Shown here piece by piece: positions 42,636 through 63,640 of a DNA stretch of 64,000 bases. The notes under the pieces were generated by a model. That model was not told where the DNA came from. It was given only the letters and a program-made list of their open reading frames with translations, and ran no database searches. The position numbers and the translations under genes are program-made. Numbering within the stretch: the stretch's first letter is position 1; each line of letters opens with the position of its first letter. Source of the stretch: Verrucomicrobiota bacterium (GTDB lineage Bacteria > Verrucomicrobiota > Verrucomicrobiia > CAIQCK01); NCBI GenBank assembly GCA_016222825.1, contig JACRQF010000015.1, positions 297,646 to 361,645 of the forward strand. The letters run 5' to 3'.

Positions 42636-42686
42636 CGTAGGCGCGGCCCGCGGCGGGCGCAAGTCTGCGCGTAACGGCCGCCATGC

Positions 42687-43199
42687 TTACTGTTCCGGCG
42701 GCTTGAGGATCGCCAGCACCTTGAAGCCGCTGCTGGTCTTTCGGAAGACGAAGATGCGCCGGACCGGCTCGCCGTTGTCGCGCAGGTCCGCCACCACGAC
42801 AGTGTCGCTGGCCGTCAGCACGTCGTCAGCCTCCGGCGGTAGGCCGGCCTCGCGCGCGGTTGTTTGCACGGCGCTTTCCACGGCGAACGCATGCGGTTTC
42901 TCGACGGCCTTCTGGATGAAATCGGCGAGCGACTGCTCGTCTTCGATCTTCTTGCCTTCGAGGTAGAACGGCACGGTGAACTGCTCCCGCAGTTTGGCCG
43001 CGTCGTCCTTGTTGAGGAGCGAGATGAGGTCTTCCAGGGCAGCGGTGGCGTCGCGTTGCAAGGGCGCGCCGGCGGGCCGCGGCGGGGTTTTGGCTCTGGC
43101 TTCGGCGCGCTCGCCGCCCTTCCTCCCGCCGAGCGCGAACAAGCCCAGCACAACACCCAACACCACCAACACCACAACGGGTCGAGAAATACGGTTCAT
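42687..43199 (-). CDS. hypothetical membrane-anchored protein
   Basis: 170-aa ORF with N-terminal hydrophobic anchor (MNRISRPVVVLVVLGVVLGLFALG); no recognised family. Confidence 0.6.
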   Translation of the reverse strand: MNRISRPVVVLVVLGVVLGLFALGGRKGGERAEARAKTPPRPAGAPLQRDATAALEDLISLLNKDDAAKLREQFTVPFYLEGKKIEDEQSLADFIQKAVEKPHAFAVESAVQTTAREAGLPPEADDVLTASDTVVVADLRDNGEPVRRIFVFRKTSSGFKVLAILKPPEQ

Positions 43200-43308
43200 G
43201 TGTTTTCCTAAGCTCTGCTCTAGTCATACCGCCAGCCGGGGAAAAGGTTACATGCCGCAGGCAATTCAGTCTTGAATTACCCGCGCCAATCAGGAGAAAT
43301 TCGCGTTC

Positions 43309-46597: not shown

Positions 46598-46607
46598 CGA
46601 TGGATTC

Positions 46608-48008: not shown

Positions 48009-49339
48009 GAAGCCGGCTCCGTTGCGCGATACACCCACAGATAACGGCGGTCGTAGATGATGACCTCCTTCACGCCGTCGCCGTCCCAGTCCACGATCTT
48101 CGTCGCGAAACCGTAGCCGAGGTCATCGGCGCGCGCTTTCGGCGGTAACTCGTGCTCGGGCTGGCGCGAGTTCGGCGGCAGTGCGAACTCCAGCGTGATG
48201 TTGCCGTCGCCGTCCATGCCCCACGGCCAGCCGCCGTCAGTGTAGATGATGTAGTCCTTCGTGGGCTTGCCGGCGCGCGGGATGGGAAATGGCTTGATGG
48301 GGCCGTTGCGGTGAAACACGCGGCCCTCGCACGCTCTCGGGCAACCGAGCGGCCAGCGGCGCGGCGACGGCCGCTGCCAGAGTTCCTTGCCGTGGGCGTC
48401 GTAGAGGACGATCGGGCCGTTGGGGGCGTTATAGACGGCAACCTGAAACTCCGAGTCGTCGCGGAACCGGCCCAGCGCACTGCACTGCACGTGAGGACCG
48501 GGGTGCGCGAACAACGTCCGCCCGCCGCGCTCGACGAGGTAGGACTTGTCGGAGCCGGCGAACGCGAGCATCAGTTTGCCGGAAGCGAGCCGCAACACGT
48601 CGGTGTAGTCCACGTGCTGTTTGCCTGCGTCGAGCTTCGCCGGGTCAATCGCGTCCACCGTCCACGCGATCTTGCCGGACGGTTTCACCGCGCAATAGCC
48701 GATGAGGAACTCGCTGCCTTTCTCGCCGTCGAGGTCGAGCGTGAGGATGTGATGACCTGCGCCGGGAATCGCGACGGGTCCCCAGACGGGTTTGAGTTTT
48801 GCGTCGAGCGCGATGAGCGGCTCGCCGTAGCGCCACTTGCCATAGCCGCCCTCGCCGTTCTTCACGACGACGGCTGCTTCGCCGGGCGCAGTCCGCTCGC
48901 CGAGCACCTGCACGATGTAGAAGTTGTCCTCCGGCATCTCGGCTTCGGCGCGCACACGGCCGGTGAGGCCGTCGAGCAAATGGATTTTGCGCCCATCGGC
49001 CAGCGCGACTTCCACGCGCCCGTCGCCATCCACGTCGCCCGCCGCAACGCACGATTCGAAAGCGTGACTCGTGTAGGGACGGTCGGTTGGGTTCGGCGTG
49101 CCCCAGGTCCACAAGCGCGTTCCGTCCTGCCGGAACGCGATCAGGCAGGTGGACTTTGGCAGCGCCGGTTTCACTTGCGGCCAGCTCGAATACAATGCCG
49201 AGCCGAAGACAGCCGGCCCTTGATACGCGAGCACTTCGGGCCGGCCGTCGTGGTCGAGGTCGGCAAAGAAAAGTTCCGCGCCACCGAACGCAGCGACGGA
49301 GAGTTCCTGAAGGAGCTTGAGGCAGATGGAGGCACTCAT
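48005..49339 (-). CDS. FG-GAP/VCBS repeat beta-propeller protein
   Basis: ORF 48005..49357; FG-GAP-like calcium-binding repeats (DLDHDGRPEV, GDVDGDGRVEV, DWDGDGVKEV); stop overlaps start of the BNR gene. Confidence 0.75.
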   Translation of the reverse strand: MSASICLKLLQELSVAAFGGAELFFADLDHDGRPEVLAYQGPAVFGSALYSSWPQVKPALPKSTCLIAFRQDGTRLWTWGTPNPTDRPYTSHAFESCVAAGDVDGDGRVEVALADGRKIHLLDGLTGRVRAEAEMPEDNFYIVQVLGERTAPGEAAVVVKNGEGGYGKWRYGEPLIALDAKLKPVWGPVAIPGAGHHILTLDLDGEKGSEFLIGYCAVKPSGKIAWTVDAIDPAKLDAGKQHVDYTDVLRLASGKLMLAFAGSDKSYLVERGGRTLFAHPGPHVQCSALGRFRDDSEFQVAVYNAPNGPIVLYDAHGKELWQRPSPRRWPLGCPRACEGRVFHRNGPIKPFPIPRAGKPTKDYIIYTDGGWPWGMDGDGNITLEFALPPNSRQPEHELPPKARADDLGYGFATKIVDWDGDGVKEVIIYDRRYLWVYRATEPAS

Positions 49340-49429
49340 GACAACGGGAGAATCCACCTCCGCGTGCCAAGAGCCAAGCCCGAAGTGAGATGGCGAACCG
49401 GACAGGAGTGTCCGGCTTGCGATGAGACC

Positions 49430-49687
49430 TCAGTCCGGCAGCATGTCAATGTCGTGGGCGATGTCGAGAAACTCGTTTTTCGAAACCTCTTCGAGCGTCT
49501 TGCCGCGCTGCTTGAGCTTCTCGTTGAACTTGATCGCCTTCTCGGTCATGTGGTCGTGCGTCTCTTCGCTGCCGCCGAGCAGCAGGAAATTCTCGCCTTT
49601 CGTAACCCGCTTGTGGTGGTCCTTGTTGTCCAGCCCCAGACCGAGCAGGAGGGCTTTCTTTGACTTGGCTTTTTTTCGAGGCTTCAT
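49430..49687 (-). CDS. hypothetical small charged protein
   Basis: ORF 49430..49702; ATG at 49687 (MKPRKKAKSKKALLLGLGLDNKDHHKR…); no recognised family. Confidence 0.5.
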   Translation of the reverse strand: MKPRKKAKSKKALLLGLGLDNKDHHKRVTKGENFLLLGGSEETHDHMTEKAIKFNEKLKQRGKTLEEVSKNEFLDIAHDIDMLPD

Positions 49688-49745
49688 CTGTAAGGATCGC
49701 AACTACGAAGAAAGTTATCCGGAAACCAGCGGTTGTCGCGGGGCA

Positions 49746-50099
49746 TCATTTGCGGGGTCGAGCGCTGAAGAGGAGCACCCCGCCTGCCGCCACCGTCAAC
49801 AGACTGATGCCACAGAGCGCGAGCTTCACCCGGTAATTGGTTCGCGTCAGCAGGATCGTGCCGGTGGCAAAACCCTTCGTTACTCCAAACACCTGCTGGC
49901 TGTTGCTGGCGATCTTCGGCCAGTTGCTTTCCAGTTGCTGAAGATTCCGCTGGGCTTGCTCCAATTGTTCCGCGCTCTTGAGCGTGGCAAATCCCGCGTA
50001 GAGCAACATCACCGCGCCGACTACGAAGCAAACAAGGCCCATGACCAGCGGCAGCTTTGCCGTGGTTGTCGGCGCGGTTGACGGGTTTTTCATGCTCAT
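49746..50099 (-). CDS. hypothetical small membrane protein
   Basis: 117-aa ORF with two hydrophobic helices flanking a soluble segment. Confidence 0.5.
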   Translation of the reverse strand: MSMKNPSTAPTTTAKLPLVMGLVCFVVGAVMLLYAGFATLKSAEQLEQAQRNLQQLESNWPKIASNSQQVFGVTKGFATGTILLTRTNYRVKLALCGISLLTVAAGGVLLFSARPRK

Positions 50100-50147
50100 G
50101 GCCGGCTAGCCTATTCGCGGACAGGTCGTTTTCAAGGGGATTCTCGG

Positions 50148-51212
50148 CTACTTCAGATCTATCACGGAGATCGTGTAGAGCTTGCTCGATTTGTGCGGGC
50201 CGTAGGCGAGATTGATGTTCGAGACGTAGAGCTTGTTGCCGCGCACGATGCACTCCGATGGCGAGTGGAGGCTGCCGTCGGCGCCGTCGCTCTCGCCGTT
50301 CTTGGCAACGACCGTCACCGCGCCGGACTTGGAATCAATCCGCACGACGGCGTTGCCGAGAAAGTCGGCCACCCAGAGGTTGCCGGCGGCGTCGCAATGA
50401 AGGCCGTCGGTGCTCTCCATGCCGTTGTCCTTCGCGAGCACGGCCTGTGACTGAACCTTGCCGGCGGCATCGAAGACCACCTTGATGACCTCGCGGTCGC
50501 CGAAGTTGCAGACATACATGTTGCCGGCGGCGTCGAAGTCGAGGCCGTTCGCGCCGACGGGATGCTCCTTGTTTTGCGTGGAGAGCTTCACGACCAGACG
50601 CGGGTCGCCGAGGCCGGTCACCTTCAAAGGATTCTTCGCGTCCAGTTCGGCGATGGCGAAGCGATAGACGCCGCTGGCCATGGGTGTCTCTTTGTTGAGC
50701 GTCGTGTCGCAGACGTAGATGCAGTCGCCTTTCGCCGCCACGCCATTGGCCATGTTGAGGCCGACCGCCACCACGTCACAGCCGGTCGCCTTGCCGTCCT
50801 TCATGTTCACGCGCAACAGCCGCGACTTTGCCGGCTCCTTCGTGCAGAACGCCTGGCAGTCGGCGACGTAGAGGTTGCCGTCGGAGCCGAACGCGACGCC
50901 GAGCGGGCTGGCGAGCTTGGTGTCGGGTTGCGGCGGCAGCGTGATGACTTCCTCCAACTGGTCGTCAGGCGTGATGCGCAGAATTTTCGCCGGATGTTGC
51001 TGAAGCACGACGTTGTTCATGGCGAGGTAGATGCAGCCGTCCTTGCCGAGGGTCATGCCGTCGGGGCTGTTGTATTTCTCCGGCAGCATAAAACCGACGC
51101 GCGGCTTCATGAGGCCGGCCTTTCCGCATTCGCACTCGCAGCCGCAGCCGCCGAGGAACCAGCACAATCCCAAAACTGCCATCAAGCTCGCTACTCTTGT
51201 CATCGTTCGCAT
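50148..51212 (-). CDS. SMP-30/gluconolactonase/LRE-like beta-propeller lipoprotein
   Basis: 354-aa ORF; lipobox-type signal (…LGLCWFLGGCGC…); NHL/SMP-30-like blade repeats (GNLYVAD, GNMYVCN, GNLWVAD). Confidence 0.75.
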   Translation of the reverse strand: MRTMTRVASLMAVLGLCWFLGGCGCECECGKAGLMKPRVGFMLPEKYNSPDGMTLGKDGCIYLAMNNVVLQQHPAKILRITPDDQLEEVITLPPQPDTKLASPLGVAFGSDGNLYVADCQAFCTKEPAKSRLLRVNMKDGKATGCDVVAVGLNMANGVAAKGDCIYVCDTTLNKETPMASGVYRFAIAELDAKNPLKVTGLGDPRLVVKLSTQNKEHPVGANGLDFDAAGNMYVCNFGDREVIKVVFDAAGKVQSQAVLAKDNGMESTDGLHCDAAGNLWVADFLGNAVVRIDSKSGAVTVVAKNGESDGADGSLHSPSECIVRGNKLYVSNINLAYGPHKSSKLYTISVIDLK

Positions 51213-51239
51213 GTCTTTCTCCTTTGGCTGATCGCGAGG

Positions 51240-52733
51240 CTACCACTTCGTCCAGACGTTCTCCAAAGACTGGATGACTTCCAGATACCTCGCATACTTC
51301 GCTGCATACAAATCCTTCATCGCCGGGTCCGGCTCCTGCCGCCGCGCGACGCGGGTCATCGCCGCCACCGCCTGCGGATAGCCTGCGTAGCAGCCGCTCG
51401 CAACCGCCGCGGCGATGGCCGCGCCGAGCGCGCCGAGTTCCGTGCCGGCGGGAATCTCCACCGGAATCTGGAAGCAGTCGGCGAACATCCGCACCCATAC
51501 GTCGCTGCGCGCCGCGCCGCCAGTGAAACGGATCGCCTCCGGCGGCGGGCGGAATTGCAGCAGCCGGCGCACGTGCCAGTGGTGGGCGAAGACGATGCCT
51601 TCATAAACCGCGCGCAAGATGTGGGCGCGCGTGTGACGGCCTTCGAGACCGATCAAGCATGACTTCGCTGCCGGATGCGCATTGGAGCCGTAAAGGAACG
51701 GCAGGAACACGAGCCGCGAGTCACGCGCATCCACCGAAGCGACCAGTTCGTTGCAAAGTTCGTAAGCGGACCCGCGTTGCTCCGGGCCGAGAAATTCGGC
51801 GATGAACCACTCGAGGTTGCCGGCGGAGGTCGGGCTGCCTTCCAGCATCAGATGCCAACCCGGCACCGCGTAGCAGGTGGTCATGAAGAGGTCTTTGTCT
51901 ATGAGCGGCTCGCGGGCGACGTAGAGGTTGCAGCCCCACGTGCCGGCCACCACTGACATCAGCCGCTCGTCCACCATGCCCGCCGCCAGACCGCACGCAT
52001 CAATGTCGAACAACCCGCCCGCGACCGGCGTGCCCGCGACCAGGCCCGTCTCGGCGGCGGCTTGCGCAGTGACCTTGCCGCAGAGGTCGGCGCTCCCGAC
52101 CAGCGGCGGCAGCAGGCGCTTCATGTCCGCGATGCCGAACAGTTCCAGCACGCTGTCGTCGTAGCCGGCGGTGACGACGTTCATCAAGCTCGTGCCGGAC
52201 ATGTCGGTCAGTTCGGCACCAACCTCGCCCGTGAGCCGGAAGCGGATGTAGTCCTTGCACATCAACGCCCACCGTGATTGGGCAAGCGTCTCAGGCTCAT
52301 GATCGCGCAGCCACGCCAGCAAAGCGTTCGGCTGGCCGGGCCAGAGGCATTGCGCAGTCTTCGGCAGCGCCTGCTCGCCGACGCCCGCCGCGCGCCACCG
52401 CGTGACGATGTCCAGAGCGCGAGAGTCGGTGGAATAGATGCCGTTCCGCGCGGGGCGGCCGTCCTTGTCTATGAGGTAGAGGCCGTTGCCGTGGCCCGCG
52501 CAGGCGACGCAGAGAATGTCGCGCGGATTGACGCCGGACTTCGCCAGCACTTCGCGGATCGCCTCGGCCGTGCTGCGCCAGAGCGCGTCCGCGTCGCGCT
52601 CGGCGTGGCCCGGCTTCGGCTCCAGCGACGGCAGTTTTCGCCCTGCGACGGCGACCTCGTCGCCGTTAAGCGTGAACAACGCGGCCTTCGAGACCGTGCC
52701 GCCGTTGTCAATGCCGAGCAGATAGCGCGACAT
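51240..52733 (-). CDS. FGGY-family carbohydrate kinase (xylulokinase-like)
   Basis: 497-aa ORF; N-terminal LGIDNGGTVSKAALF phosphate-1 motif and typical FGGY N- and C-domains. Confidence 0.9.
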   Translation of the reverse strand: MSRYLLGIDNGGTVSKAALFTLNGDEVAVAGRKLPSLEPKPGHAERDADALWRSTAEAIREVLAKSGVNPRDILCVACAGHGNGLYLIDKDGRPARNGIYSTDSRALDIVTRWRAAGVGEQALPKTAQCLWPGQPNALLAWLRDHEPETLAQSRWALMCKDYIRFRLTGEVGAELTDMSGTSLMNVVTAGYDDSVLELFGIADMKRLLPPLVGSADLCGKVTAQAAAETGLVAGTPVAGGLFDIDACGLAAGMVDERLMSVVAGTWGCNLYVAREPLIDKDLFMTTCYAVPGWHLMLEGSPTSAGNLEWFIAEFLGPEQRGSAYELCNELVASVDARDSRLVFLPFLYGSNAHPAAKSCLIGLEGRHTRAHILRAVYEGIVFAHHWHVRRLLQFRPPPEAIRFTGGAARSDVWVRMFADCFQIPVEIPAGTELGALGAAIAAAVASGCYAGYPQAVAAMTRVARRQEPDPAMKDLYAAKYARYLEVIQSLENVWTKW

Positions 52734-52741
52734 GCGAGCGT

Positions 52742-53431
52742 TTACTTCACATCCTTCAGGAAGAAGTCGTTCATCGCCTTGTCGAGATGACGCACGCCGG
52801 CGTTGGTGTGGACGTTGGCCACCTCGGTGATGATCGCGCCTTCGGGGCCGGCCATCTGCCAGTGATGCGCGCCCTCGCGGTTGAGCGGAACGAAATCGCC
52901 GGGCTTCGCGGCGACCTCGTGCTCGACGGTGACTTTGCCGCCGTTGTGGATGGTCGGCACCTTCACCGTCAGGTTCGGCTCGCCCTCACCGACGATGTGC
53001 GAGAGACCGTAACGCACCAGCCAGCCTTCGAGCTTGGAAGGATTCTCCTTCGCGGCTTGGTGCCAGTGCTCCGGCAACATCTGGTTCGGCATCAGGTAGA
53101 TGTCCATGAGCATGTAGCGGTCCTTCTCGTTGTTGTTCCACATCACCGCCGCGAGCCCGACCTCGGTGAAATGGCCGAGGCCGTAGTCGGAAACCCAAAT
53201 CTTCTCGCGGATGCCGGGATAGACCGGATAGCCGTGGTATTTCATCAGCGCCATGACGGCGTCCTTGCCTTTCTCCTCGTCGAACTTGCCGTCCTTGTAG
53301 AAGAAATTGTTGTCGAACTTGATCTTCACTTTCTTGGCTCCTTGTGCGTCGCAGGCGCCCGGCATCGCGACCGCCAGCAACATCATGCCCGCGCAAACCG
53401 CGCGGAGGGTTTGGTTCAGCTTTAGGTTCAT
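52742..53431 (-). CDS. cupin-domain protein, D-lyxose/D-mannose isomerase-like (tentative), with signal peptide
   Basis: ORF 52742..54544, upstream part implausible; ATG at 53431 gives MNLKLNQTLRAVCAGMMLLAVAMPGACDAQG; cupin His cluster (…PEHWHQ…). Specific isomerase assignment is tentative. Confidence 0.6.
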   Translation of the reverse strand: MNLKLNQTLRAVCAGMMLLAVAMPGACDAQGAKKVKIKFDNNFFYKDGKFDEEKGKDAVMALMKYHGYPVYPGIREKIWVSDYGLGHFTEVGLAAVMWNNNEKDRYMLMDIYLMPNQMLPEHWHQAAKENPSKLEGWLVRYGLSHIVGEGEPNLTVKVPTIHNGGKVTVEHEVAAKPGDFVPLNREGAHHWQMAGPEGAIITEVANVHTNAGVRHLDKAMNDFFLKDVK

Positions 53432-53472
53432 GTGGCTCCTCGTCTTGGTTGGTTGTCTTGGTTGAAACTCGA

Positions 53473-54771
53473 TTACACGATCTCTTCCTTCACCGGATCC
53501 CAGCGCACCTGACGGCGCTTCAGATAGGACTCGACGGACATCAGCGACGTCGCGATCTCCACGAACGCTTCGTCCACGCCGCACTTCGGCGTGCCGCGGC
53601 TGCGGATGCAGTTGAAGAAATCCTCCATGTGGTTCGGCTGGCGCGGCGTCTTGCCGCGAATGTAGCCCTTCGGCAGGTCCTTCTTCTCGTTGTGGCCTTC
53701 GGGCGTGATGGTGAAGTTCGTCGCGTCGTGCGCGATGCCGTCGAAGCGCAGCAGCGCGTCCTTGCCGCAGAACTCCACCGGCTGGCCGACGCCGGTGTTC
53801 ATGCTCGCGGTGAACGTGACCGTGCGGCCGAGCTTGATGAACTGATACGTCGCCGCCCACGTGTCGGGCACCTCGCGGTCGTCCTTGAGCAGCGCGTTGA
53901 GACCGGCGCAGATGCAGGTGTCGGGAATGCCGTGGCCGAGGATGTATTGGACGAAGTCCAGCTCGTGCGAGAGCAGGTCGCCCGCCTGGCCGGTGCCGTA
54001 GCGCCAGTAACAACGCCAGTGCCAGAAGTGCCGCTCGTTGAACGGAATCTTCGGCGACTCGCCTAGCCAGAGCTTCCAGTCCACGTCCTTGACGACCTTC
54101 GCGGGATCGGGACGCTCCCATTGGCCGTAGTAACCATACCAGCGCCAGATCGGATGGGCCGGCTCGGTGTTGCCGTAGCGGCCGGTGCGCACGAGCGTGA
54201 TCGGGCCGAGCGCGCCGGTGGCGATGAGTTCCTTGGCTTGCAACGCGCACGCGCTCTGCCGCGCCTGGTGGCCGAGCTGGAACACGACCTTGCTCTTCTT
54301 GAGCGCGGCGCGCATCAGCTTCGCCTCCTTGAGCGTGCGCGAGAAACCCTTCTCGCAATAGATGTCTTTGCCGGCCTTCACCGCATCGAGAACCATCTGG
54401 CAATGCCAGTGGTCCGGCGTGCCGATGACGACCGCATCCACGTTCTTGTCGGCAAGCAGCTCGTGGTAATCCACGTAAGCCTTCACGTCGGGGTTCTTGC
54501 TGCGCTCGACGCCTTTCTGGCGGTGCGGTCCATACACGTCGCACACCGCCGTCATCTTCACGCCGTCGCAGTTGACCGCCCCGTTGATGAGATCGCCGCC
54601 GCGCGTGCCGAGGCCGATGCAGCCGACGCCGATGGTCGCGTTCGGCGATTTGGCACTGAGGATGGCTGGCGCGAAAGCCGAAGCCGCGGCGAGCGTTGTC
54701 GCGGTCCTGCCGGTGGTGCTGAGAAACTCCCGTCGGGTGAAGTGGGTCTGCTCGTTCATGTTGGTTTCCAT
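53473..54771 (-). CDS. Gfo/Idh/MocA-family oxidoreductase with TAT signal
   Basis: ORF 53473..54831; start at ATG 54771 (METNMNEQTHFTRREFLSTTG) or 54759; GCIGLGTRG NAD-binding motif. Confidence 0.85.
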   Translation of the reverse strand: METNMNEQTHFTRREFLSTTGRTATTLAAASAFAPAILSAKSPNATIGVGCIGLGTRGGDLINGAVNCDGVKMTAVCDVYGPHRQKGVERSKNPDVKAYVDYHELLADKNVDAVVIGTPDHWHCQMVLDAVKAGKDIYCEKGFSRTLKEAKLMRAALKKSKVVFQLGHQARQSACALQAKELIATGALGPITLVRTGRYGNTEPAHPIWRWYGYYGQWERPDPAKVVKDVDWKLWLGESPKIPFNERHFWHWRCYWRYGTGQAGDLLSHELDFVQYILGHGIPDTCICAGLNALLKDDREVPDTWAATYQFIKLGRTVTFTASMNTGVGQPVEFCGKDALLRFDGIAHDATNFTITPEGHNEKKDLPKGYIRGKTPRQPNHMEDFFNCIRSRGTPKCGVDEAFVEIATSLMSVESYLKRRQVRWDPVKEEIV

Positions 54772-54895
54772 GTTTGACTGCCGCCTGTCTGGGCGCGCAG
54801 AAAACACTACTTTCCGGCGAAGTGCAAGCATTCTGAGGTTTTGTTCCCGACCGCGTGGTTAACTTTCCGCGCCGACCGTATTAGCTGGAGGCATC

Positions 54896-55970: not shown

Positions 55971-57320
55971 CTATTTGCCGGCAGGCGTTATCGGCTTTTT
56001 CGAGACGATGTCGTCGGCAGGAATGTCCACGAAGATGCCGGGCGCGGTCTCGAAATGAACGGTGCCGTCGTTCTCGACGCGGTTGATCAGGCCGCGCAGG
56101 GTGCGACCATCCTTGACTACTATAATGGTGTCGGGAAGGAAGAGGCGCTTGAGTTGGACGTTGCTGATCGTCGTGGTCTGGCCGTCCTGGATGCTGGCCA
56201 CGACCTGGACGTCGGCGCAGCCGGGCCTGACAAACTTCACGATGCGCTGGCCTTGCGGCACGTTGGAGATGATCAGCGGGACCGAGTAGGCTTGGTTGGG
56301 CGGCGCCTGGGTGACGCCACGCGGGTCGTTGTCCACAAACACCTGCACGCCGGCCGGGATCGTCGTCACTTGAAGGATGCCGAAAAGTTTCGCGAACGGT
56401 ATCTTCAGGTCCAAGTCCGCCCCTTTCTTCAGTGTGACCTTTCTCTCGACGGGGTCGAAGCCGTGCTTGGTGATCTTGATGGCGTATTCGCCTTCGTGGA
56501 GCCGGTCGAGGATGACCGGGGCCTTGCCACGCGCTTCGCTGTTAAGAAACACCTCGCCGCCGGTCGGATCGGTGTCCACCTTGATGCGACCGAGTTTCTC
56601 CTTGAGCAGGGCGTCGACGTTAAATTCCTTCATGCTTTTGACTTCGGCTTCCTGCTCGAACGGTTCATAGCCATCGAGTTCGACGCGGACCTGGTGTTTG
56701 CCGGCAAGGACGTTTTGGATGCTTTGCGGCGAATCACCCACGTAGGAACCGTCAAGGTAAACCTTGGCCTTCTCAGGCGTGGAAATGACCTTGATGGCGG
56801 TGAGCAGCGAGCGCAGTTCGAGCGAAATCAGCTTCGGCTGGCGGTCGCCTTCGTTCTGGATGTTCAGCACCGTTTCCTTGGACTCGTAGCCGTCCTTCTT
56901 GATGACGATGCGATGCTGGCCGGCGGGCAGGTCGGTCAACAGCACCGGCGTCTTGCCGCGGAACACATTGTTCACGAGCACTTCGGATTCCGCGGGGAAC
57001 GATTCGGCGAGGACCAGGCCGAACAACGGCCGCAGCGACAGGTCGAACCGCGTGGTTCCTTCCGGCAGCACGTTGACGGTGGCGCGCGTCTCCAGGAAAC
57101 CGTCGCGCGTGGCCACAACCAGATGTTGTCCCGGCGCAACCTTTAGCTTGATGGGCGAGTCGCCCTGGTAAACACCATCCAGTTCGATGCGCGCGCCGGA
57201 TGGCGACGTGCGCAGTTCGAGCAGGCTGCCGGGTTGTTCAACACAGCCGGCGGCCAGCAGTGCTGCCAGTATCAAGGCACTCAGTCCGCAACGTGCGATG
57301 GCAATCGTAGGGTTCATCGG
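55971..57320 (-). CDS. PEGA-domain lipoprotein (several PEGA repeats)
   Basis: ORF 55971..57437; ATG at 57320 gives lipoprotein-type signal MNPTIAIARCGLSALILAALLAAGC; repeated PEGA-like modules (…GKTPVLLTDLPAGQHRIVIKKDGYE…, …GKAPVILDRLHEGEYAIKITKHGFD…). Confidence 0.8.
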   Translation of the reverse strand, partial: PMNPTIAIARCGLSALILAALLAAGCVEQPGSLLELRTSPSGARIELDGVYQGDSPIKLKVAPGQHLVVATRDGFLETRATVNVLPEGTTRFDLSLRPLFGLVLAESFPAESEVLVNNVFRGKTPVLLTDLPAGQHRIVIKKDGYESKETVLNIQNEGDRQPKLISLELRSLLTAIKVISTPEKAKVYLDGSYVGDSPQSIQNVLAGKHQVRVELDGYEPFEQEAEVKSMKEFNVDALLKEKLGRIKVDTDPTGGEVFLNSEARGKAPVILDRLHEGEYAIKITKHGFDPVERKVTLKKGADLDLKIPFAKLFGILQVTTIPAGVQVFVDNDPRGVTQAPPNQAYSVPLIISNVPQGQRIVKFVRPGCADVQVVASIQDGQTTTISNVQLKRLFLPDTIIVVKDGRTLRGLINRVENDGTVHFETAPGIFVDIPADDIVSKKPITPAGK

Positions 57321-58744
57321 CGTGGCAGATGTCGTTGCACACCAATCAGTTTCCGGTCGGCCTCCTTGTAACGCTCGTCCTCGCGGTCGGGAACGCGCGC
57401 CAGGATCTCCGACAGGCATGTCTGCGCCTTGGCCCACTCGCCGAGCTTCATGGCTTGCTCGGCGTTGAAGCGCAAGCTGTTGATCTTTTCCTTGAGCATG
57501 TCCTTCGCCAGCGTCTCGTTCTGGACCGCCGCGGCGAAGTTGGCCGGTTTCGGCTCGATGATCTCCAGGTCAATCTGGACAAGCTGGAATGCCTTGATGG
57601 CGTTGTAGAGGTTGGGATAGTCCACGTCGCGCTGCTCGAAGAGCTGCTTGCCGCGCAGGTAGGCCTCGTCCGCTTCCCTGATCAACTCCTCGCGGGAGCG
57701 GTTGATCGCGGCGATGCCCAGTTCGTTCTGGGCGAAATCCTCCAGCACTTTCTGCGCGTTGACGAATGCGTCGGGGGCGATGGTGTTTTCGATCTCGACC
57801 CGCTTCACGCGCGCGCCGCGGGTCAGTTCGATGACCGCCATTTCCTGCTTGTCAGCAGGGAAGCCGCCGTATTTGGGTTTCTCCAACTTGTCGAAGCCGC
57901 CGTTCTCGATCTGACGGACCAGTTCTATGATGAGGCCCTCGCCCACCTTCTTCTCGCGCTGGACGTGGCGGCGCTGTTTGAGGTCATCCACGTTCAACGT
58001 CACTTTGTCGCCGCTGAGGCGTAGCGCGAACCGGAAGATGTTCTGCGTGCTCGCCTCGACCTTCTCGTAAAACAGGTCTGGCCGCCGCGTCTCGCCGCCC
58101 ATGCTCGACACCACTTGTGGCATGGAGCGCTGGACTTCCTTCCAAACGTAGAGTCCGCCGCCGATGGCCACGATTGTCAGGAGGGCCGTCAGCCCCAACG
58201 ACATCAGGCGGCGGCCGATGGGAGCGGCGGGCTTCTTCTTCGCGGGGCGTTTGGGCTTGCCGCCGAAGGTCAGTTCGGCCGGAGCCTCTTCGCCGGTTTC
58301 CCCGGCTTCTTCAACCTCTTCCTCCTTCCTTCGGGGCTGCTCCTCTTCCGCCGTCTCCTCCTCGGCTTCTTCCACGGCGGGCTTTGTGACCACGGGAAGC
58401 TTCTCGGTCGCCGGGCCGCGCTTGGGCGGCTCGCTCTCGCGGACGGGGCGCGCGGCTTCCTCAATGACCTCGAAGAGGGTGCTGCCGATGGAAATCTCGT
58501 CGCCGGGCTTCAGGACGCTCTCGTCAATGGACTGGCCGTTGACCTCGGTGCCGTTGACCGATTCGAGGTCGCGGATGACCATCTGGCCGTGCTCATCCAT
58601 GCGCACGTCGGCGTGTTCGGAGGAAACGAGCTGGTCGTCGGGAATGACGATGTCGCACTGCGCCGCGCGGCCGATGGTCACGGGGTTTTTGCCAACCGAG
58701 TATTCCCGGCCGCGGCGTCTGCCTTGTAGGATGCGAAGTTTCAT
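57314..58744 (-). CDS. FHA-domain membrane protein
   Basis: 476-aa ORF; N-terminal FHA domain (…YSVGKNPVTIGRAAQCDIVIPDDQLVSSEHADVRMDEHGQMVIRDLESVNGTEVNG…), Glu-rich linker, one TM helix, C-terminal domain. Confidence 0.85.
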   Translation of the reverse strand: MKLRILQGRRRGREYSVGKNPVTIGRAAQCDIVIPDDQLVSSEHADVRMDEHGQMVIRDLESVNGTEVNGQSIDESVLKPGDEISIGSTLFEVIEEAARPVRESEPPKRGPATEKLPVVTKPAVEEAEEETAEEEQPRRKEEEVEEAGETGEEAPAELTFGGKPKRPAKKKPAAPIGRRLMSLGLTALLTIVAIGGGLYVWKEVQRSMPQVVSSMGGETRRPDLFYEKVEASTQNIFRFALRLSGDKVTLNVDDLKQRRHVQREKKVGEGLIIELVRQIENGGFDKLEKPKYGGFPADKQEMAVIELTRGARVKRVEIENTIAPDAFVNAQKVLEDFAQNELGIAAINRSREELIREADEAYLRGKQLFEQRDVDYPNLYNAIKAFQLVQIDLEIIEPKPANFAAAVQNETLAKDMLKEKINSLRFNAEQAMKLGEWAKAQTCLSEILARVPDREDERYKEADRKLIGVQRHLPRR

Positions 58745-58763: not shown

Positions 58764-59114
58764 CTACGCTACAACAAATTCAAGCTGGTCGCCCGGCTGC
58801 GAGTGGCTGCGGGCAATGGCGCCCACGGGCAACTCCAGCACACCCGCCGCGCCCAACGCGCCGCAGAACAGCCTCCAAGGAGCGAGCGCCGGCACCATTT
58901 TCACTATCGTCAGTCGCTTGTCAAAGAATATCACGTCAAGCGGCATCCGCATGAAACACATGTGGATGGCGTTGGCCGGCCGCAGCATCATGCCGTCGAA
59001 CCCCTCGAACCGCTGGAACATCAGCCCCAGCGTGCGGCTCCAGAGGGTCACGGCGGGCCGGGCGTTCCCGGCCAGCGTCGTGCCGCGGGTTGTGTTGCGG
59101 ATGATCATCGGCAA
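58764..59114 (-). CDS. DUF192-family protein
   Basis: 116-aa ORF; …RTLGLMFQRFEGFDGMMLRPANAIHMCFMRMPLDVIFFDKRLTIV… matches DUF192/COG1430 pattern. Confidence 0.7.
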   Translation of the reverse strand: MPMIIRNTTRGTTLAGNARPAVTLWSRTLGLMFQRFEGFDGMMLRPANAIHMCFMRMPLDVIFFDKRLTIVKMVPALAPWRLFCGALGAAGVLELPVGAIARSHSQPGDQLEFVVA

Positions 59115-59128
59115 CGAGTCGAGGCGGC

Positions 59129-60070
59129 TCAGAACGCGCTCCGGAACGCCTGCGCGAGGATCGGGCCGAGCAGGAACAGCATCACCGCCGGGAAAATCAG
59201 CAGCAGCAGCGGGCCGAGCATTTTCACCGGCGCCTCATAAGCGAGCTTCTCGGCGCGCTGGAACCGCTTCACGCGCATCTGGTCGGCCATGATGCGGAGG
59301 ATGGTGCCGAGGCTGACGCCGAGTTCGTCGGCCTGGACGAGCGCGGAGACGACGGAACTGAGGTCGGGCTGGTCCGCCCGCAAGCCCATGTCCCGCAGCG
59401 CCTGTCGGCGCGTCTTGCCGACCTGGATTTCATGGAACACGCGCAGCAGTTCCTCGCCGAGCGGGTCCATCGCGCGCTTCTCGATGATCTTGCGGATGGC
59501 GGTCATGAAATCGAGGCCGGCCTCCACTGAGAGCGTCATCAGGTCGAGCACGTAGGGCAGCGCCTTCTGCATGCTGCGGTGCCGGGCGTTGCGGGTCTGT
59601 TTCAGCCAACTCGTCGGGTAGATCAGGCTGTAGCCGATCATCAGGATCATCCCCACATTCCAAAAGCGGCCAACACCGGGCAGATCCTCCAATGCCGGCT
59701 TCATGCCGAAGCTGAGCGGCACGGCCACGATGAACAGCAGGACCTGGATGGACATGAACTCCTCCGCGCTCAGCAGCCCTTCATAGCCCGCGGAAATCAG
59801 CCGCCCGTCGAGCTTGGCGCGGTAGTTGTCCAGTTTCTTGTGCCGGAACAACGGCGCGACGTTGGGCACAAACGGCAGCAACAGCCGGAACAGCAGCGGC
59901 AGTTTTCTCATCTGCTGCCGGCCGTCGGCCAACCGCACGTATTTCACCTCACTCGCCGACATCCCGACATACCACGCCGCGGCAAACGCAAAGACCATCC
60001 ACATCAACGGCGCGATGATCTCCTGCGGCGTGATCTGCGTGACATACGGCACGATTCGCTCTGGTTCCAT
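59129..60070 (-). CDS. tadC: type II secretion system F-family protein, TadC-like (Flp pilus assembly)
   Basis: 313-aa ORF with GspF/TadC-type domain (…ALPYVLDLMTLSVEAGLDFMTAIRKI…) and flanking TM helices. Confidence 0.85.
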   Translation of the reverse strand: MEPERIVPYVTQITPQEIIAPLMWMVFAFAAAWYVGMSASEVKYVRLADGRQQMRKLPLLFRLLLPFVPNVAPLFRHKKLDNYRAKLDGRLISAGYEGLLSAEEFMSIQVLLFIVAVPLSFGMKPALEDLPGVGRFWNVGMILMIGYSLIYPTSWLKQTRNARHRSMQKALPYVLDLMTLSVEAGLDFMTAIRKIIEKRAMDPLGEELLRVFHEIQVGKTRRQALRDMGLRADQPDLSSVVSALVQADELGVSLGTILRIMADQMRVKRFQRAEKLAYEAPVKMLGPLLLLIFPAVMLFLLGPILAQAFRSAF

Positions 60071-60169
60071 TGCTTGTTGTCCTGCTCGTTAAAAAGTTGT
60101 GTCTCTGCGTTGTTGCGCTCCCGGATGCCGCTGGCTTAAACTGTGCCGGCAAAGAAACCGGAGCGCGTC

Positions 60170-60997
60170 ATGAAATTGTTACTGCTCATCATCTGCTTCG
60201 CTGCAAGCGTTATTCAGGCCGCCGACAAGCCTGTGCGCATCAAGTTCAAGGACAAGTCTGAACTGGAGGGCATCGTCAGCACCAGCATCAGCGATACCCA
60301 AGGGTTCACGCTCAAAACCAAGTTTGGCGAAACTCATTACAACTGGAACCAGATTGACATCAACGACCTGCGCCAATCCAACCCGGAACTCTACCAGTTC
60401 TACGTCCAACAAAGTCATGGCCGCTCGGTCAATGCCAGCCTGCTCAAAATCAAGCTCCGCGACGGCACTGTGCTCGAAGGTTCCGTTACCACGTCGCAGA
60501 CCGACACGCGAGGCTTCACGTTTCGATCCCAGTTTGGCAGCCGCTATTACGAATGGACTCAGATTGACCTCGAACATCTGAAACAGTCCAAGCCGGAGCT
60601 TTACCAGTTCTATCTCCAGCAGTCCCAGATTGACGACATCAAGACCGACGAACAGATCATCCAGTTCGTGAAGGGCAAGTTCGTCTTTCGCTCCGAGGCC
60701 AATGTCATCCTCAAGAACTACGGCCGCGTCCTCGACCAGGTGACCGCCGCGATGCGCATCAGACAGGTGTCCCAGCGCAACCAGCAGCTCGCCACCATTG
60801 TCAGCAACAGCCGGCCCGTGCTGCAAGCCGTCATCCAAAAATGCCAGGTGTTCTACGGCGCCACGCGCAGCCGCCCGCTCCAGTCGTTGCTGCTCAGCTA
60901 TCGCAACGCCTACGACGCCCTGGTCCGCACCGACTACGCGAGCTTCGCCTACAACCACAAGTTCGTCCAGGAGGCGCTCGCCGGGATGCAGCAGTAG
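60170..60997 (+). CDS. secreted hypothetical protein with internal tandem ~45-aa repeat
   Basis: ORF 60143..60997; ATG at 60170 with GGAG 8 nt upstream; signal peptide MKLLLLIICFAASVIQA; two repeat modules (DTQGFTLKTKFGETHYNWNQIDINDLRQSNPELYQFYVQQS and DTRGFTFRSQFGSRYYEWTQIDLEHLKQSKPELYQFYLQQS); GC appears lower than neighbours. Confidence 0.65.
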   Translation: MKLLLLIICFAASVIQAADKPVRIKFKDKSELEGIVSTSISDTQGFTLKTKFGETHYNWNQIDINDLRQSNPELYQFYVQQSHGRSVNASLLKIKLRDGTVLEGSVTTSQTDTRGFTFRSQFGSRYYEWTQIDLEHLKQSKPELYQFYLQQSQIDDIKTDEQIIQFVKGKFVFRSEANVILKNYGRVLDQVTAAMRIRQVSQRNQQLATIVSNSRPVLQAVIQKCQVFYGATRSRPLQSLLLSYRNAYDALVRTDYASFAYNHKFVQEALAGMQQ

Positions 60998-61019
60998 CCG
61001 GCCGCGGCAGCTTTCTTTT

Positions 61020-61916
61020 TCAAATATCAATGTTCACGATTTTGCGGATGATCAGGTAGCCGCAGATCTCAAAGCCGAGCGCCAGCACGATGATCATCAC
61101 ACCCACCGTGGAGAAAATGAAGCCCGTCATCATCGCCGGGCTGATGAAATACATCGCCGTCGCCAGCAGCAGCGGCATGAACCCGACGATGATCGCCTGA
61201 AGCCGCCCCTGCGCCGTCAGCGAGCGGATCTTGCCCTCCACCCGCATCCGTTCGCGGATGACCGTGGCGAGCTGATCGAACACTTCTGTCAGGTTGCCGC
61301 CGGTCTGGCGCGAAATCTCGATGGCGGTGATCATCAGGTCGAGGTCCTGGCTGCCGACGCGCTTGCTGAGGCTGTCCATCGCCTCCTCGAATTTCACGCC
61401 CAGCCGGTGCTGGTGCAGGAACAGCCCGAACTCCTCGCTGATCGGCCGGCGGTTTTCTTTCACCACCATGTCGAAGGCCTGCAACACGCTGAAGCCGGCG
61501 CGCAGCGAGTTGCTCATCGTCTGCATCGCCTCCACCAGTTGCTCGTTGAACAGCTCCAGCCGCTTTTGCCGCATCCGCCGGATCACCCAGCGCGGAATCA
61601 TGAAACCGATGGCGCCAAAGATCAGCGAGAACGCCGCCGTGCCGGCGAGGTGCAGCGTGTCCTCGAAGCTGCCCACCAGCGCGAACATGATCAGCGCGAA
61701 CGACACTCCCGTGATCTGCGCCAGCATCACCACCTGCTGCGGGTTGAGCGACAGGAACATGTCGTCCAGATGCCGGCCGGTCTCCTCGATATAGACCTCG
61801 CGATACGTCCGGGACATTTCCGCCATCCACTCGCCGAGCGCCCAGACGATGCCGGCCGCCGACAGGAAATAGAGCAGCGGCACCAAGTAACTGACGCTGA
61901 GGTCGTAAAAGGTCAT
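61020..61916 (-). CDS. tadB: type II secretion system F-family protein, TadB-like (Flp pilus assembly)
   Basis: 298-aa ORF, GspF-type domain with TM helices (…SNSLRAGFSVLQAFDMVVKE…). Confidence 0.85.
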   Translation of the reverse strand: MTFYDLSVSYLVPLLYFLSAAGIVWALGEWMAEMSRTYREVYIEETGRHLDDMFLSLNPQQVVMLAQITGVSFALIMFALVGSFEDTLHLAGTAAFSLIFGAIGFMIPRWVIRRMRQKRLELFNEQLVEAMQTMSNSLRAGFSVLQAFDMVVKENRRPISEEFGLFLHQHRLGVKFEEAMDSLSKRVGSQDLDLMITAIEISRQTGGNLTEVFDQLATVIRERMRVEGKIRSLTAQGRLQAIIVGFMPLLLATAMYFISPAMMTGFIFSTVGVMIIVLALGFEICGYLIIRKIVNIDI

Positions 61917-63640
61917 GGCATCGGCTCAGTCTGCTGGGTGAAAACACTGCGGTCCAGTTGCAGACCGCGGATCCGCACCTCGTCAATGAACGTCGGCACC
62001 GAGCCGGTGGCGGTGAAGTAGCCGAGCACCTTGCCCCTCGGATCCAGCCCGGTCTGCTTGAAGATGAACATGTCCTGCATCACGATCACATCCTTCTCCA
62101 TGCCGGTGACCTCGGAGATTTTCGTGACGCGCCGCGTGCCGTCGCTGAGCCGGTCGGTGTGGCAGATGATGTCCACCGCGGCGGCAATCTGCTCGCGGAT
62201 GGCGCGGCTGGGCAGGTCCATGCCCGCCATCAGCACCATCGTCTCCATGCGGCTGATGGTGTCGCGCGGCGAGTTGGAGTGGACGGTCGTGAGCGAGCCG
62301 TCGTGGCCGGTGTTCATCGCTTGGAGCATGTCGAGCGACTCGCCGCCGCGGCACTCGCCGACAACAATGCGGTCGGGCCTCATGCGCAAGGCGTTGCGGA
62401 CGAGGTCGCGGATGGTGACGGCGCCGCGGCCCTCGATGTTCGCCGGGCGCGCCTCCAGGCTGACGACGTGCGGCTGGTTCAGGCGCAACTCGGCGGTGTC
62501 CTCGATGGTGACGATGCGCTCGTCCTTCGGGAGATAGTTGGAGAGCACGTTCAGCAGCGTGGTCTTGCCGGAACCGGTGCCGCCGGAGATGATGATGTTC
62601 TTGCGCAGCAGCACGCAGATGCGCATGAAGTCAGCGATCTGGTCGGTCATCGTGCCGAACCGGACCAAGTCTGGCACGGTGGACGGCGTCTTGGCGAACT
62701 TGCGGATGGTGATGGTCGGGCCTTTGAGCGAGAGCGGGGCGATGATGGCGTTGACGCGGCTGCCGTCGGCCAGGCGCGCGTCCACATAGGGCGAGCTTTC
62801 GTCAATGCGCTTGCCGATCGGCGCGACGATGCGCTCGATGATGGCCAGCACCTGCGCGTCGTCCACGAACGAGCGCTCCGTCAGTTGTATCTTGCCGCGA
62901 CGCTCCACGTAAACCTTGTCGGGGCCGTTGACCATGATTTCGGTGACCTCGTTGTCTTCCAGCAGGTCGTCGAGCGGGCCGAGGCCGATGGCTTCCTGGA
63001 TGATCTCGCGCGTCAGCACCGCGGGCGCGATGGAGGCCGGAAGCTGGTCTTTGATCTCGTTGACGATGGACGCGACGGTGGCGCGGACCTTTTCCTGCAA
63101 CGACTTCGTCGCGGCCGTGTTGGTGCCCACCAGCCGTTTCAGGTCGAGCCGCTTCAGCAATTCGGCGTGAATCTGCGCCTTGAACTTCCGCATCAGCGCG
63201 CGCGCGGGATCGCCGCCGGCGGGCGGCGACGGTTCGGCTTCGCGCGGCGCGGGCTGTTTGGACAGGTAATCGAGTTCCGGGGCGCGTTCCGCTTGGGCGC
63301 GCTGTCCCGGCGCGGCGTCGTCCTTCGGGTAGTCCAGCCAGATGACGCAGGCGCCGATGATCACGCGCTGGCCGACGTTGATGCGGACGCGGCGCTTGAT
63401 GCGGACGCCCTCCACGAAGGTGCCGTTGGTGCTGCCAAGGTCTTCGATCTGGATGTCGTCCGGTTGGTAAAGAAGCCGGGCGTGCTGGCGGGAGACGCCG
63501 CTGTTGCTGACGCAGATGGCGCAGGCCGGATCGCTGCCGATGGAATACTCGGCCGGATGCAGGCGCTGGCGAATCCTGCGTTTCTGGCCGTCCTCGGTCA
63601 CTTCCACGACGAGGTCGAGTTGGTCGGTGGTCTTCGGCAT
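61913..63640 (-). CDS. cpaF: CpaF/TadA-family secretion ATPase with N-terminal FHA domain
   Basis: 575-aa ORF; N-terminal FHA (…SRQHARLLYQPDDIQIEDLGSTNGTFVEG…); Walker A GGTGSGKTTLLN; VirB11/CpaF core. Confidence 0.9.
   Translation of the reverse strand: MPKTTDQLDLVVEVTEDGQKRRIRQRLHPAEYSIGSDPACAICVSNSGVSRQHARLLYQPDDIQIEDLGSTNGTFVEGVRIKRRVRINVGQRVIIGACVIWLDYPKDDAAPGQRAQAERAPELDYLSKQPAPREAEPSPPAGGDPARALMRKFKAQIHAELLKRLDLKRLVGTNTAATKSLQEKVRATVASIVNEIKDQLPASIAPAVLTREIIQEAIGLGPLDDLLEDNEVTEIMVNGPDKVYVERRGKIQLTERSFVDDAQVLAIIERIVAPIGKRIDESSPYVDARLADGSRVNAIIAPLSLKGPTITIRKFAKTPSTVPDLVRFGTMTDQIADFMRICVLLRKNIIISGGTGSGKTTLLNVLSNYLPKDERIVTIEDTAELRLNQPHVVSLEARPANIEGRGAVTIRDLVRNALRMRPDRIVVGECRGGESLDMLQAMNTGHDGSLTTVHSNSPRDTISRMETMVLMAGMDLPSRAIREQIAAAVDIICHTDRLSDGTRRVTKISEVTGMEKDVIVMQDMFIFKQTGLDPRGKVLGYFTATGSVPTFIDEVRIRGLQLDRSVFTQQTEPMP

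What the first reader, a model, noticed from the sequence alone, without database searches (positions are those of the whole stretch)
60170..60997. Lower-GC, opposite-strand gene for a secreted tandem-repeat protein embedded between tadB and tadC
All flanking tad genes are on the minus strand, but this gene is on the plus strand and exactly fills the tadB-tadC gap. It has a signal peptide, an internal duplication of a ~45-residue module (…D-T-Q/R-G-F-T…Y-x-W-x-Q-I-D…K/R-Q-S-x-P-E-L-Y-Q-F-Y…) and visibly lower GC than its neighbours, suggesting later insertion or a distinct origin. Its position suggests a secreted substrate or accessory factor of the Tad-like machine, or an inserted cargo gene.
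Basis: partly seen in the sequence, partly recalled or inferred. Interest (0 to 1): 0.55.

Follow-up and report, generated by a model that had tools for sequence, protein, structure and literature searches.

The report
Orphan exported protein inside Tad operon
A small clade of uncultured Verrucomicrobia carries a previously undescribed exported protein gene, on the opposite strand, between the two membrane-platform genes of its Tad pilus operon; it is a real, old, vertically inherited addition whose function is unknown but most likely tied to the pilus machine.

Summary
Window 60170..60997 (+) encodes a 275-aa protein with an N-terminal Sec-type signal peptide. It has two tandem modules (70-aa period, 56% identical) and a helical C-terminal domain. 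It sits 99 bp from the tadC start and 22 bp from the tadB stop, both on the minus strand.

Its GC (0.570) is the lowest of 51 genes called in the window. That comes only from codon positions 1 and 2. GC3 (0.81) and codon adaptation are native, so there is no compositional sign of recent foreign origin.

Comparison with other genomes shows a real but old insertion:
- About 15 distinct related loci all have the gene in this position and orientation, down to 43% identity.
- Five of five nearest outgroup Tad operons (TadB 48-53% identical) have tadB and tadC directly adjacent, with no such gene and no DUF192.

The gene is under purifying selection (dN/dS 0.20-0.27) but evolves 2-3 times faster than the machine genes. 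Module number varies from 1 to 3.

The module is a generic small beta-barrel (Sm/SH3-like) followed by two helices. The C-terminal domain has no detectable relatives.

Best reading, by inference only: a clade-specific periplasmic accessory factor of a Kil-like, FHA-regulated Tad machine. Interest is modest.

The parts
60170..60997 (+). CDS of the orphan exported protein ('X'), 275 aa plus stop
   Evidence: ORF. GC3 0.81 against 0.55 for the antisense frame. 100% match to MAG Verrucomicrobia hypothetical protein HZC54_18865, plus 19 homologue clusters. dN/dS 0.20-0.27.
60170..60220 (+). Sec-type (SPase I) signal peptide, residues 1-17, MKLLLLIICFAASVIQA|AD
   Evidence: Only hydrophobic segment in the protein. 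Conserved n/h/c pattern with A-x-A in all homologues. AF2 pLDDT below 50 for residues 1-18. No canonical lipobox and no prepilin G/xxxxE motif, by reading the sequence.
60224..60427 (+). Module 1 (residues 19-86): four beta-strands plus two helices; the optional, N-terminal copy
   Evidence: BLASTP against module 2: 56% identity, E=1e-26. AF2 secondary structure. Absent from the 1-module homologues P0022-P0024 and loci L011, L012.
60431..60625 (+). Module 2 (residues 88-152): small beta-barrel plus helical hairpin; the constant copy, present in every family member
60626..60994 (+). C-terminal helical domain (residues 153-275), including the highly conserved DDIxTDxQIxxFxxGKFxFRSEANxxLKNYG segment
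60071..60169 (.). Divergent tadC|X intergenic region. Contains -35-like TTGCGC (60113-60118), -10-like TAAACT (60137-60142) and SD GGAG (60160-60163) for X, and an AGGA SD for tadC on the minus strand.
   Evidence: Length conserved at 93-111 bp, with these blocks conserved across 11 loci. The consensus promoter scan found nothing, so the promoter assignment is inference.
60998..61019 (.). Convergent X|tadB gap (22 bp), T-rich on the + strand
   Evidence: Gap is 19-102 bp in homologous loci. No terminator-like hairpin detected here.
59129..60070 (-). tadC-like platform gene (T2SSF)
   Evidence: Pfam PF00482, E=3.8e-16. 73-94% identical in X-bearing loci.
61020..61916 (-). tadB-like platform gene (T2SSF)
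   Evidence: Pfam PF00482, E=2e-17. Named 'tight adherence protein B' by JGI for homologues.
61913..63640 (-). CpaF/TadA-type ATPase with N-terminal FHA domain
   Evidence: Pfam T2SSE 6.8e-63 plus FHA 2.1e-18.
58764..59114 (-). DUF192 gene, the second clade-specific addition to the operon
   Evidence: Pfam PF02643, 7.1e-15. Present in all X-bearing loci long enough to show it and absent from the outgroup loci.

Best explanation
X is a Sec-exported, soluble, basic protein of about 30 kDa. It is most likely periplasmic. It is a lineage-specific accessory component of a PVC-type, FHA-regulated Tad/Flp pilus machine.

Shown:
- It was inserted once, in the ancestor of one Verrucomicrobiia clade, into the otherwise universally contiguous tadB-tadC junction.
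- It has been co-inherited with the operon ever since.
- It is kept by purifying selection, yet diverges 2-3 times faster than the machine core.
- The constant unit is one small beta-barrel/helical-hairpin module plus an orphan C-terminal helical domain. Zero to two extra N-terminal modules have been added by tandem duplication.

Inferred:
- The C-terminal domain docks or oligomerises on a periplasmic part of the machine (RcpC/CpaB conduit, platform loops, pseudopilins or the PEGA protein).
- The barrel modules are binding surfaces for protein, glycan or peptidoglycan.
- The gene is transcribed from its own promoter in the 99-bp region shared divergently with tadC. This uncouples tadC from the tadB-tadC translational coupling seen in outgroups.
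For: Position and orientation are identical in every locus found. These are 9 GTDB species genomes, 3 places found by exact-protein look-up and 7 metagenome loci. That makes about 15 distinct loci with no exceptions, while X identity falls to 43% and TadB/TadC/CpaF stay at 71-94%.

All five nearest outgroup operons (L015-L019, TadB 48-53% identical) keep the same gene order. In them tadB-tadC overlap or lie within 149 bp. A profile search of their six-frame translations finds no X.

dN/dS of X is 0.20-0.27 against 0.08-0.15 for TadB, TadC and CpaF, with equal dS. GC3 and CAI are native.

The signal peptide is conserved family-wide, and no other hydrophobic segment exists.

An exhaustive HMM search of 1.84 billion representatives finds only 11 clusters. 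The C-terminal domain occurs only in proteins from loci whose context, where seen, is Tad.

The locus is a true Tad locus. In the window: CpaF, TadB, TadC and a partial RcpC. In the orthologous locus L001: Flp, TadE-like, TadG-like (PF13400) and RcpC.

Literature: tadB and tadC are a fission pair that is normally contiguous (PMC6668835).
Against: There is no direct functional evidence. A gene wedged between two essential operon genes can keep its position passively, so synteny alone does not prove a functional link.

Neither sequence nor fold similarity to any known Tad, T4P or T2SS component reaches significance.

TadB and TadC lengths do not differ between the X clade and the outgroup. No new docking domain is therefore visible on them.

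Distant module-only relatives (P0026, P0027) sit on short contigs with no visible tad genes.

The opposite-strand orientation means X is not co-transcribed with the machine.
Confidence: 0.5

Rival explanations
1. Passenger gene. X is an exported protein with a function unrelated to the pilus. It happened to insert between tadB and tadC and is positionally locked there, because any rearrangement would damage the operon.
For: No similarity to any Tad component. Opposite strand with apparently its own promoter. Faster evolution than the machine. The barrel module also occurs in proteins with no visible tad neighbours.
Against: X has been retained without a single loss or relocation across about 15 loci, down to 43% identity, under purifying selection. 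The C-terminal domain is never seen outside this position. A second gene (DUF192) was added around the same tadC gene in the same clade, which suggests remodelling of the system rather than a random hit.
Confidence: 0.25
2. Secreted substrate or surface adhesin. X crosses the inner membrane through Sec and is then exported or displayed by the Tad-like machine, as in a T2SS. Fast evolution and the variable module number would reflect exposure to the environment.
For: Sec leader, as in T2SS substrates. Fastest-evolving gene of the locus, with variable repeat number. Kil-type Tad-like machines are suspected of delivering unknown factors (PMC8460266).
Against: No secretin is encoded in the operon or among the neighbours checked in the window. 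No adhesin, toxin or enzyme domain is present. To my knowledge Tad systems are not known to secrete Sec-dependent soluble proteins. X has no prepilin-type leader, so it is not a pilin-like substrate.
Confidence: 0.1
3. Mainly regulatory architecture. The important consequence of the insertion would be convergent transcription against cpaF-tadB, together with a new divergent promoter region for tadC. This would decouple or tune the TadB:TadC stoichiometry, with the protein product being secondary.
For: Outgroups have overlapping or abutting tadB-tadC. In the X clade tadC has its own SD and a conserved 93-111-bp upstream region. The X stop is only 19-32 bp from the tadB stop in most loci.
Against: The protein sequence is clearly under purifying selection, with conserved motifs. 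No terminator or RNA family was detected. A purely regulatory role would not need a 275-372-aa conserved ORF.
Confidence: 0.1
4. Recently acquired foreign cargo gene, as the low GC suggested to the first reader.
For: Lowest total GC of 51 genes (0.570, z=-2.4).
Against: GC3 0.811 (z=-0.28) and CAI 0.721 (z=+0.39) are native. dS equals that of the neighbours. Orthologues occupy the same site in all relatives. No flanking repeats.
Confidence: 0.03

Closest known systems
Myxococcus xanthus Kil Tad-like apparatus (PMC8460266)
   Same: The Tad-like core has the CpaF ATPase fused to an N-terminal FHA domain. There are additional FHA-domain proteins, many locus genes of unknown function, and no TadD, RcpB or TadZ-like set.
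   Different: Kil has a secretin (KilC) and a prepilin peptidase in its clusters; none is seen in this operon. No Kil protein is known to resemble X. The phylum differs, and a predatory role is not implied here.
Canonical Tad/Flp pilus loci (Aggregatibacter tad, Caulobacter cpa; organisation reviewed in PMC6668835)
   Same: Flp-type pilins, TadE/TadG-like pseudopilins, RcpC/CpaB, CpaF, TadB and TadC in one operon.
   Different: In canonical loci tadB and tadC are contiguous, as a fission pair. Here an opposite-strand exported-protein gene separates them, and DUF192 follows tadC. The operon also ends with FHA and PEGA proteins.
Small beta-barrel domains of the Sm/Hfq / SH3 / Tudor class
   Different: X is exported, has no Sm1/Sm2 motifs, and carries a C-terminal two-helix extension with the family-specific W-x-Q-[IV]-D...L...P-x-L-Y motif. 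The scores are at the level of a generic fold and do not indicate homology.
PulS/OutS pilotins of T2SS secretins
   Same: A 25-residue stretch of the module helices aligns to PulS residues 48-72 (WANIDANLLSQRSAQLYQQLQQ), E=0.012-0.02. Both are exported proteins of type IV filament systems.
   Different: PulS is a lipoprotein four-helix bundle. X has no lipobox, has a beta-barrel plus two helices, and no secretin partner is visible in the locus. The match is marginal and was not tested further.
Pfam DUF6982 (PF22478)
   Same: Residues 20-48 hit the model at 22.9 bits. One homologue (P0013) carries the precomputed annotation, and 6 of 37 modules hit weakly.
   Different: The score is below the gathering threshold (24.5). 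Only about 30 of 134 model positions are matched. The family itself has no known function and no literature.

Membership tests
Tad/Flp (type IVc) pilus locus (the context) | CpaF/TadA ATPase plus paired single-T2SSF platform proteins TadB and TadC | tested here: met
   Pfam T2SSE 6.8e-63; T2SSF 2e-17 and 3.8e-16.
Tad/Flp (type IVc) pilus locus (the context) | Flp pilins, TadE/TadG-type pseudopilins, RcpC/CpaB | tested here: met
   Seen in the orthologous locus L001; the window ends inside RcpC. Flp_Fap is weak at 6e-4, TadE 5.6e-4, Tad PF13400 3.5e-8, RcpC/SAF precomputed. G/xxxxE[YF] leaders are readable in the two small ORFs.
Tad/Flp (type IVc) pilus locus (the context) | Secretin RcpA/CpaC, TadZ/CpaE and prepilin peptidase TadV in the locus | tested here: not met
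   No such Pfam families on any gene of the operon in L001 or L015-L019, nor on 10 large neighbouring genes of the window. They may be encoded elsewhere in the genome.
Known Tad periplasmic/OM accessory proteins (TadD, RcpB, CpaD, TadG) | Sequence membership (Pfam/NCBIfam) or a lipoprotein/TPR architecture | tested here: not met
   No Pfam or NCBIfam family reaches its cut-off for X. No lipobox, by reading the sequence. AF2 shows barrels plus a helix bundle, not TPR.
Type IV pilin-like substrates | Class III (prepilin) signal peptide with G/xxxxE and a hydrophobic N-terminal helix retained in the mature protein | tested here: not met
   The leader is MK plus a 13-residue hydrophobic core plus A-x-A, and there is no G-xxxx-E.
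Sm/Hfq family | Sm1/Sm2 motifs, cytoplasmic ring-forming RNA binder | tested here: not met
PulS/OutS pilotin | Lipoprotein four-helix bundle that binds a secretin S-domain | tested here: not met
   Only a 25-residue match at E=0.012. No lipobox, a different predicted fold and no secretin in the locus. Binding is not testable here.
Pfam DUF6982 (PF22478) | Score at or above the gathering threshold of 24.5 bits | tested here: not met
   22.9 bits, partial match to model positions 78-108 of 134.
Recently horizontally acquired island gene | Atypical synonymous-site composition or codon usage, patchy presence among close relatives, mobile-element scars | tested here: not met
   GC3 z=-0.28 and CAI z=+0.39. 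Present in all relatives at the same site. dS equals that of the neighbours. No flanking repeats.

The most novel reading that the evidence does not exclude
X (possibly together with the co-acquired DUF192) is a previously unknown structural or adaptor subunit of a secretin-less-operon, FHA-controlled Tad machine in PVC bacteria. Its orphan C-terminal domain would dock on the platform/RcpC assembly. Its 1-3 small-barrel modules would set the reach across the periplasm or the binding to the wall. Alternatively, X is the machine's exported cargo, which would make this Tad variant a protein-secretion device.
Probability: 0.15. Interest if true: 0.6.

Novelty: new variant of a known kind. Interest (0 to 1): 0.3.

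Why it matters
tadB and tadC are the two halves of an ancient split gene and are almost always neighbours. A clade in which an exported protein gene has sat between them for a long time, under selection, marks a lineage-specific remodelling of the Tad machine. The operon type involved (FHA-fused ATPase, extra FHA and PEGA proteins, no secretin in the operon) is itself barely studied. If X binds the machine, it would add a new periplasmic part to the type IV filament toolkit and define a new protein family with an orphan domain. If it does not, it is simply a well-documented case of a passenger gene fixed inside an operon. Either way, the low GC is explained by amino-acid composition and is not evidence of foreign DNA.

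Tried and rejected
- Foreign origin judged from GC: rejected, because GC3 and CAI are native.
- The afdb50 library was unavailable.
- Similarity of the module to the C-terminus of the neighbouring PEGA protein (IIVVKDGRTLRG...): hhalign probability 2%, rejected.
- Other copies of the module in the window: none.
- Sigma-70 promoter, intrinsic terminator and Rfam scans around the gene: nothing significant. A sigma-54-like GG-N10-GC in the window sequence is not conserved in the homologous loci and was rejected.
- Inverted or direct repeats flanking the gene as mobile-element scars: none. The only repeat found is the internal duplication.
- Profile of the C-terminal domain against PDB sequences and Pfam: no credible hit.
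- Literature searches for DUF6982, for DUF192 in pilus contexts, and for PEGA/FHA Tad loci in Verrucomicrobia: nothing relevant beyond the Kil paper and the type IV filament survey.
- PEGA dN/dS values are an alignment-register artefact of my script and are not used.
- Context of the distant module-only relatives P0026 and P0027: the contigs are too short to decide.

Full report
**1. What is there**

The window is high-GC DNA (63.4%). The target protein is 100% identical to a hypothetical protein (HZC54_18865) of a Verrucomicrobia MAG.

The ORF at 60143..60997 (+) is real. Its GC3 is 0.81, against 0.55 for the overlapping antisense ORF. The supported start is ATG 60170. All homologues start MK at this point, and a GGAG lies 7 nt upstream.

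The neighbouring genes are all on the minus strand (Pfam):
- PEGA-repeat protein 55971..57437
- FHA-domain protein 57314..58744
- DUF192 58764..59114
- tadC-like T2SSF 59129..60070
- tadB-like T2SSF 61020..61916
- CpaF-type ATPase with an N-terminal FHA domain 61913..63640
- the start of an RcpC/CpaB gene at the window edge

The gene lies 99 bp from the tadC start (divergent) and 22 bp from the tadB stop (convergent).

**2. The protein**

The N-terminus (MKLLLLIICFAASVIQA|AD) is the only hydrophobic stretch. It has the n/h/c layout of an SPase I signal peptide, and this is conserved in every homologue. It has no canonical lipobox and no prepilin motif. The mature protein is 258 aa, pI 9.4 and rich in glutamine.

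Residues 21-82 and 91-152 are 56% identical (BLASTP E=1e-26). At the DNA level there is a 76-nt direct repeat of 75% identity with 210-nt spacing.

AlphaFold2 with the family alignment (mean pLDDT 80) predicts the following:
- each module: four beta-strands followed by two helices
- residues 153-275: a helical domain with pLDDT 88-97

**3. Composition**

I compared the gene with 50 other ORF-called genes of the window.

| Measure | Target | z against the other genes |
|---|---|---|
| Total GC | 0.570 (lowest of all) | -2.4 |
| GC2 | 0.347 (lowest of all) | -2.39 |
| GC3 | 0.811 | -0.28 |
| CAI | 0.721 | +0.39 |

The low GC is an effect of amino-acid composition. It is not a signature of foreign DNA.

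**4. Distribution and synteny**

The family is tiny:
- 20 clusters at 90% identity in 5.8 billion proteins
- 11 representative clusters in an exhaustive HMM search of 1.84 billion. One is spurious, and two share only the module.

I examined these loci:
- places found by exact-protein look-up
- nine GTDB species genomes
- seven JGI metagenome contigs

Together they are about 15 distinct loci. All have the same arrangement: ...FHA - DUF192 - tadC (-) | X (+) | tadB - cpaF (-)... There are no exceptions.

X evolves faster than the machine core:

| Locus | X identity | Core identity |
|---|---|---|
| L011, L012 | 43-44% | TadB, TadC, CpaF 71-74% |
| L001 | 55% | TadB 92% |

TadB homologues show a gap between at least 71% identity (the X clade) and at most 53%. 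Five loci from just below the gap (L015-L019) keep the whole operon order: flp, flp, tadE-like, a large pseudopilin-like gene, two unknown genes, rcpC, FHA-cpaF, tadB, tadC, FHA protein, PEGA protein. In them tadB and tadC overlap or lie within 149 bp. A profile and tblastn search of their DNA finds neither X nor DUF192.

X is therefore a clade-specific insertion into an older PVC-type Tad operon. DUF192 was added around the same tadC gene in the same clade.

Denise et al. (PMC6668835) describe tadB and tadC as products of a gene fission that are contiguous even in the archaeal relatives. The junction X occupies is an unusually stable one.

**5. Selection**

Pairwise Nei-Gojobori estimates against five orthologous loci:
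- X: dN/dS 0.20-0.27
- TadB, TadC and CpaF: dN/dS 0.08-0.15
- dS of X (0.36-0.68) is like that of its neighbours

X is a functional, vertically co-inherited gene under weaker constraint than the machine core.

Module number varies by lineage:
- one in L011, L012 and P0022-P0024
- two in the window clade
- three in L001, L003, L010 and P0018-P0021

The module next to the C-terminal domain, and residues 153-195 (DDIxTDxQIxxFxxGKFxFRSEANxxLKNYG), are present in every family member and are as conserved as any region, whereas residues 196-275 are the least conserved.

**6. Fold and homology**

A model of one module (pLDDT 88) matches only generic small beta-barrels:
- designed SH3-like barrels

Foldseek agrees, with Hfq at TM 0.6-0.7 but E around 0.1. 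Weak profile hits to LSm and Sm D1 sequences fit the same fold class.

Two leads remain unproven:
- a sub-threshold hit to Pfam DUF6982 (22.9 bits against a cut-off of 24.5)
- a 25-residue match of the module helices to the T2SS pilotin PulS (E=0.012)

**7. Expression signals**

The tadC|X spacer keeps its length (93-111 bp) across loci. It carries conserved blocks consistent with a weak sigma-70-type promoter for X:
- TTGCGC at 60113-60118
- an 18-nt spacer
- TAAACT at 60137-60142, which fits TAnAnT in all loci
- GGAG at 60160-60163

There is also an AGGA Shine-Dalgarno for tadC on the other strand.

The consensus scans and Rfam found nothing, so this is inference. One consequence can be read directly from the sequences: the tadB-tadC overlap seen in outgroups is broken in this clade.

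**8. Interpretation**

Shown:
- a real exported-protein gene
- a true internal duplication
- a clade-specific, ancient insertion at the tadB-tadC junction
- strict co-location with the operon
- purifying selection with fast divergence
- an orphan C-terminal domain

Inferred:
- periplasmic location
- a role as an accessory or adaptor of the Tad machine

The operon type resembles the Myxococcus Kil apparatus in having an FHA-fused ATPase and extra FHA proteins (PMC8460266). No secretin, TadZ or TadV is visible in the operon or among the neighbours checked.

Rival readings:
- a positionally locked passenger gene
- a secreted substrate or adhesin
- a mainly transcriptional effect of the insertion
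- a recent foreign cargo gene; this one is refuted

**9. Verdict**

'Insertion' is right, but it is old, native in codon usage, and not shown by GC. 'Tad accessory' is plausible but untested. This is an undescribed small protein family in an uncultured lineage: a new variant of a known kind of system, of modest interest.

Noticed in passing
window 58764-59114 (-): The DUF192 gene between tadC and the FHA gene is, like X, present in all X-clade loci and absent from all five outgroup Tad operons. The two genes flank tadC and may have been acquired together. It has no obvious signal peptide.
   Followed up: partly
window 61913-63640 (-) and 57314-58744 (-): The CpaF ATPase carries an N-terminal FHA domain, and a second 476-aa FHA protein follows in the operon. 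This is the same peculiarity reported for KilF and the FHA proteins of the Myxococcus Kil Tad-like killing apparatus (PMC8460266).
   Followed up: partly
window 55971-57437 (-); loci L001, L015, L018, L019: The operon ends with a protein of five PEGA repeats, conserved also in the outgroup operons. No secretin, TadZ or prepilin peptidase is encoded in the operon or in the 10 large neighbouring genes checked. How the pilus would cross the outer membrane is therefore unclear.
   Followed up: partly
window 57314-57437: With the longest (GTG) start, the PEGA ORF overlaps the end of the FHA gene by 124 bp. The true start is probably further downstream.
   Followed up: no
L013 1-4570: The contig carrying the 5-module distant relative P0026 switches from 65% GC (a Pro/Thr/Ala-rich ORF region, 1-2900) to 37% GC (the P0026 gene, 2975-4522). 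It is either a chimeric assembly or a strikingly AT-rich gene.
   Followed up: no
L016 11001-12236 (+): In one outgroup operon the gene after tadC is a 411-aa protein with a PEP-CTERM motif in place of the FHA protein. The downstream end of these operons is variable.
   Followed up: no
L001 16607-16873 and 16955-17116 (-): There are two Flp-type pilin genes with GQ(A/T)MTE(F/Y) processing motifs at the head of the orthologous operon. One is unusually long (88 aa).
   Followed up: no
window 41583-54831: Genes downstream of the operon are typical Verrucomicrobia carbohydrate and isoprenoid genes: FGGY kinase, Gfo/Idh/MocA oxidoreductases, BNR and FG-GAP proteins, squalene/phytoene synthase. They appear unrelated to the pilus locus.
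   Followed up: no
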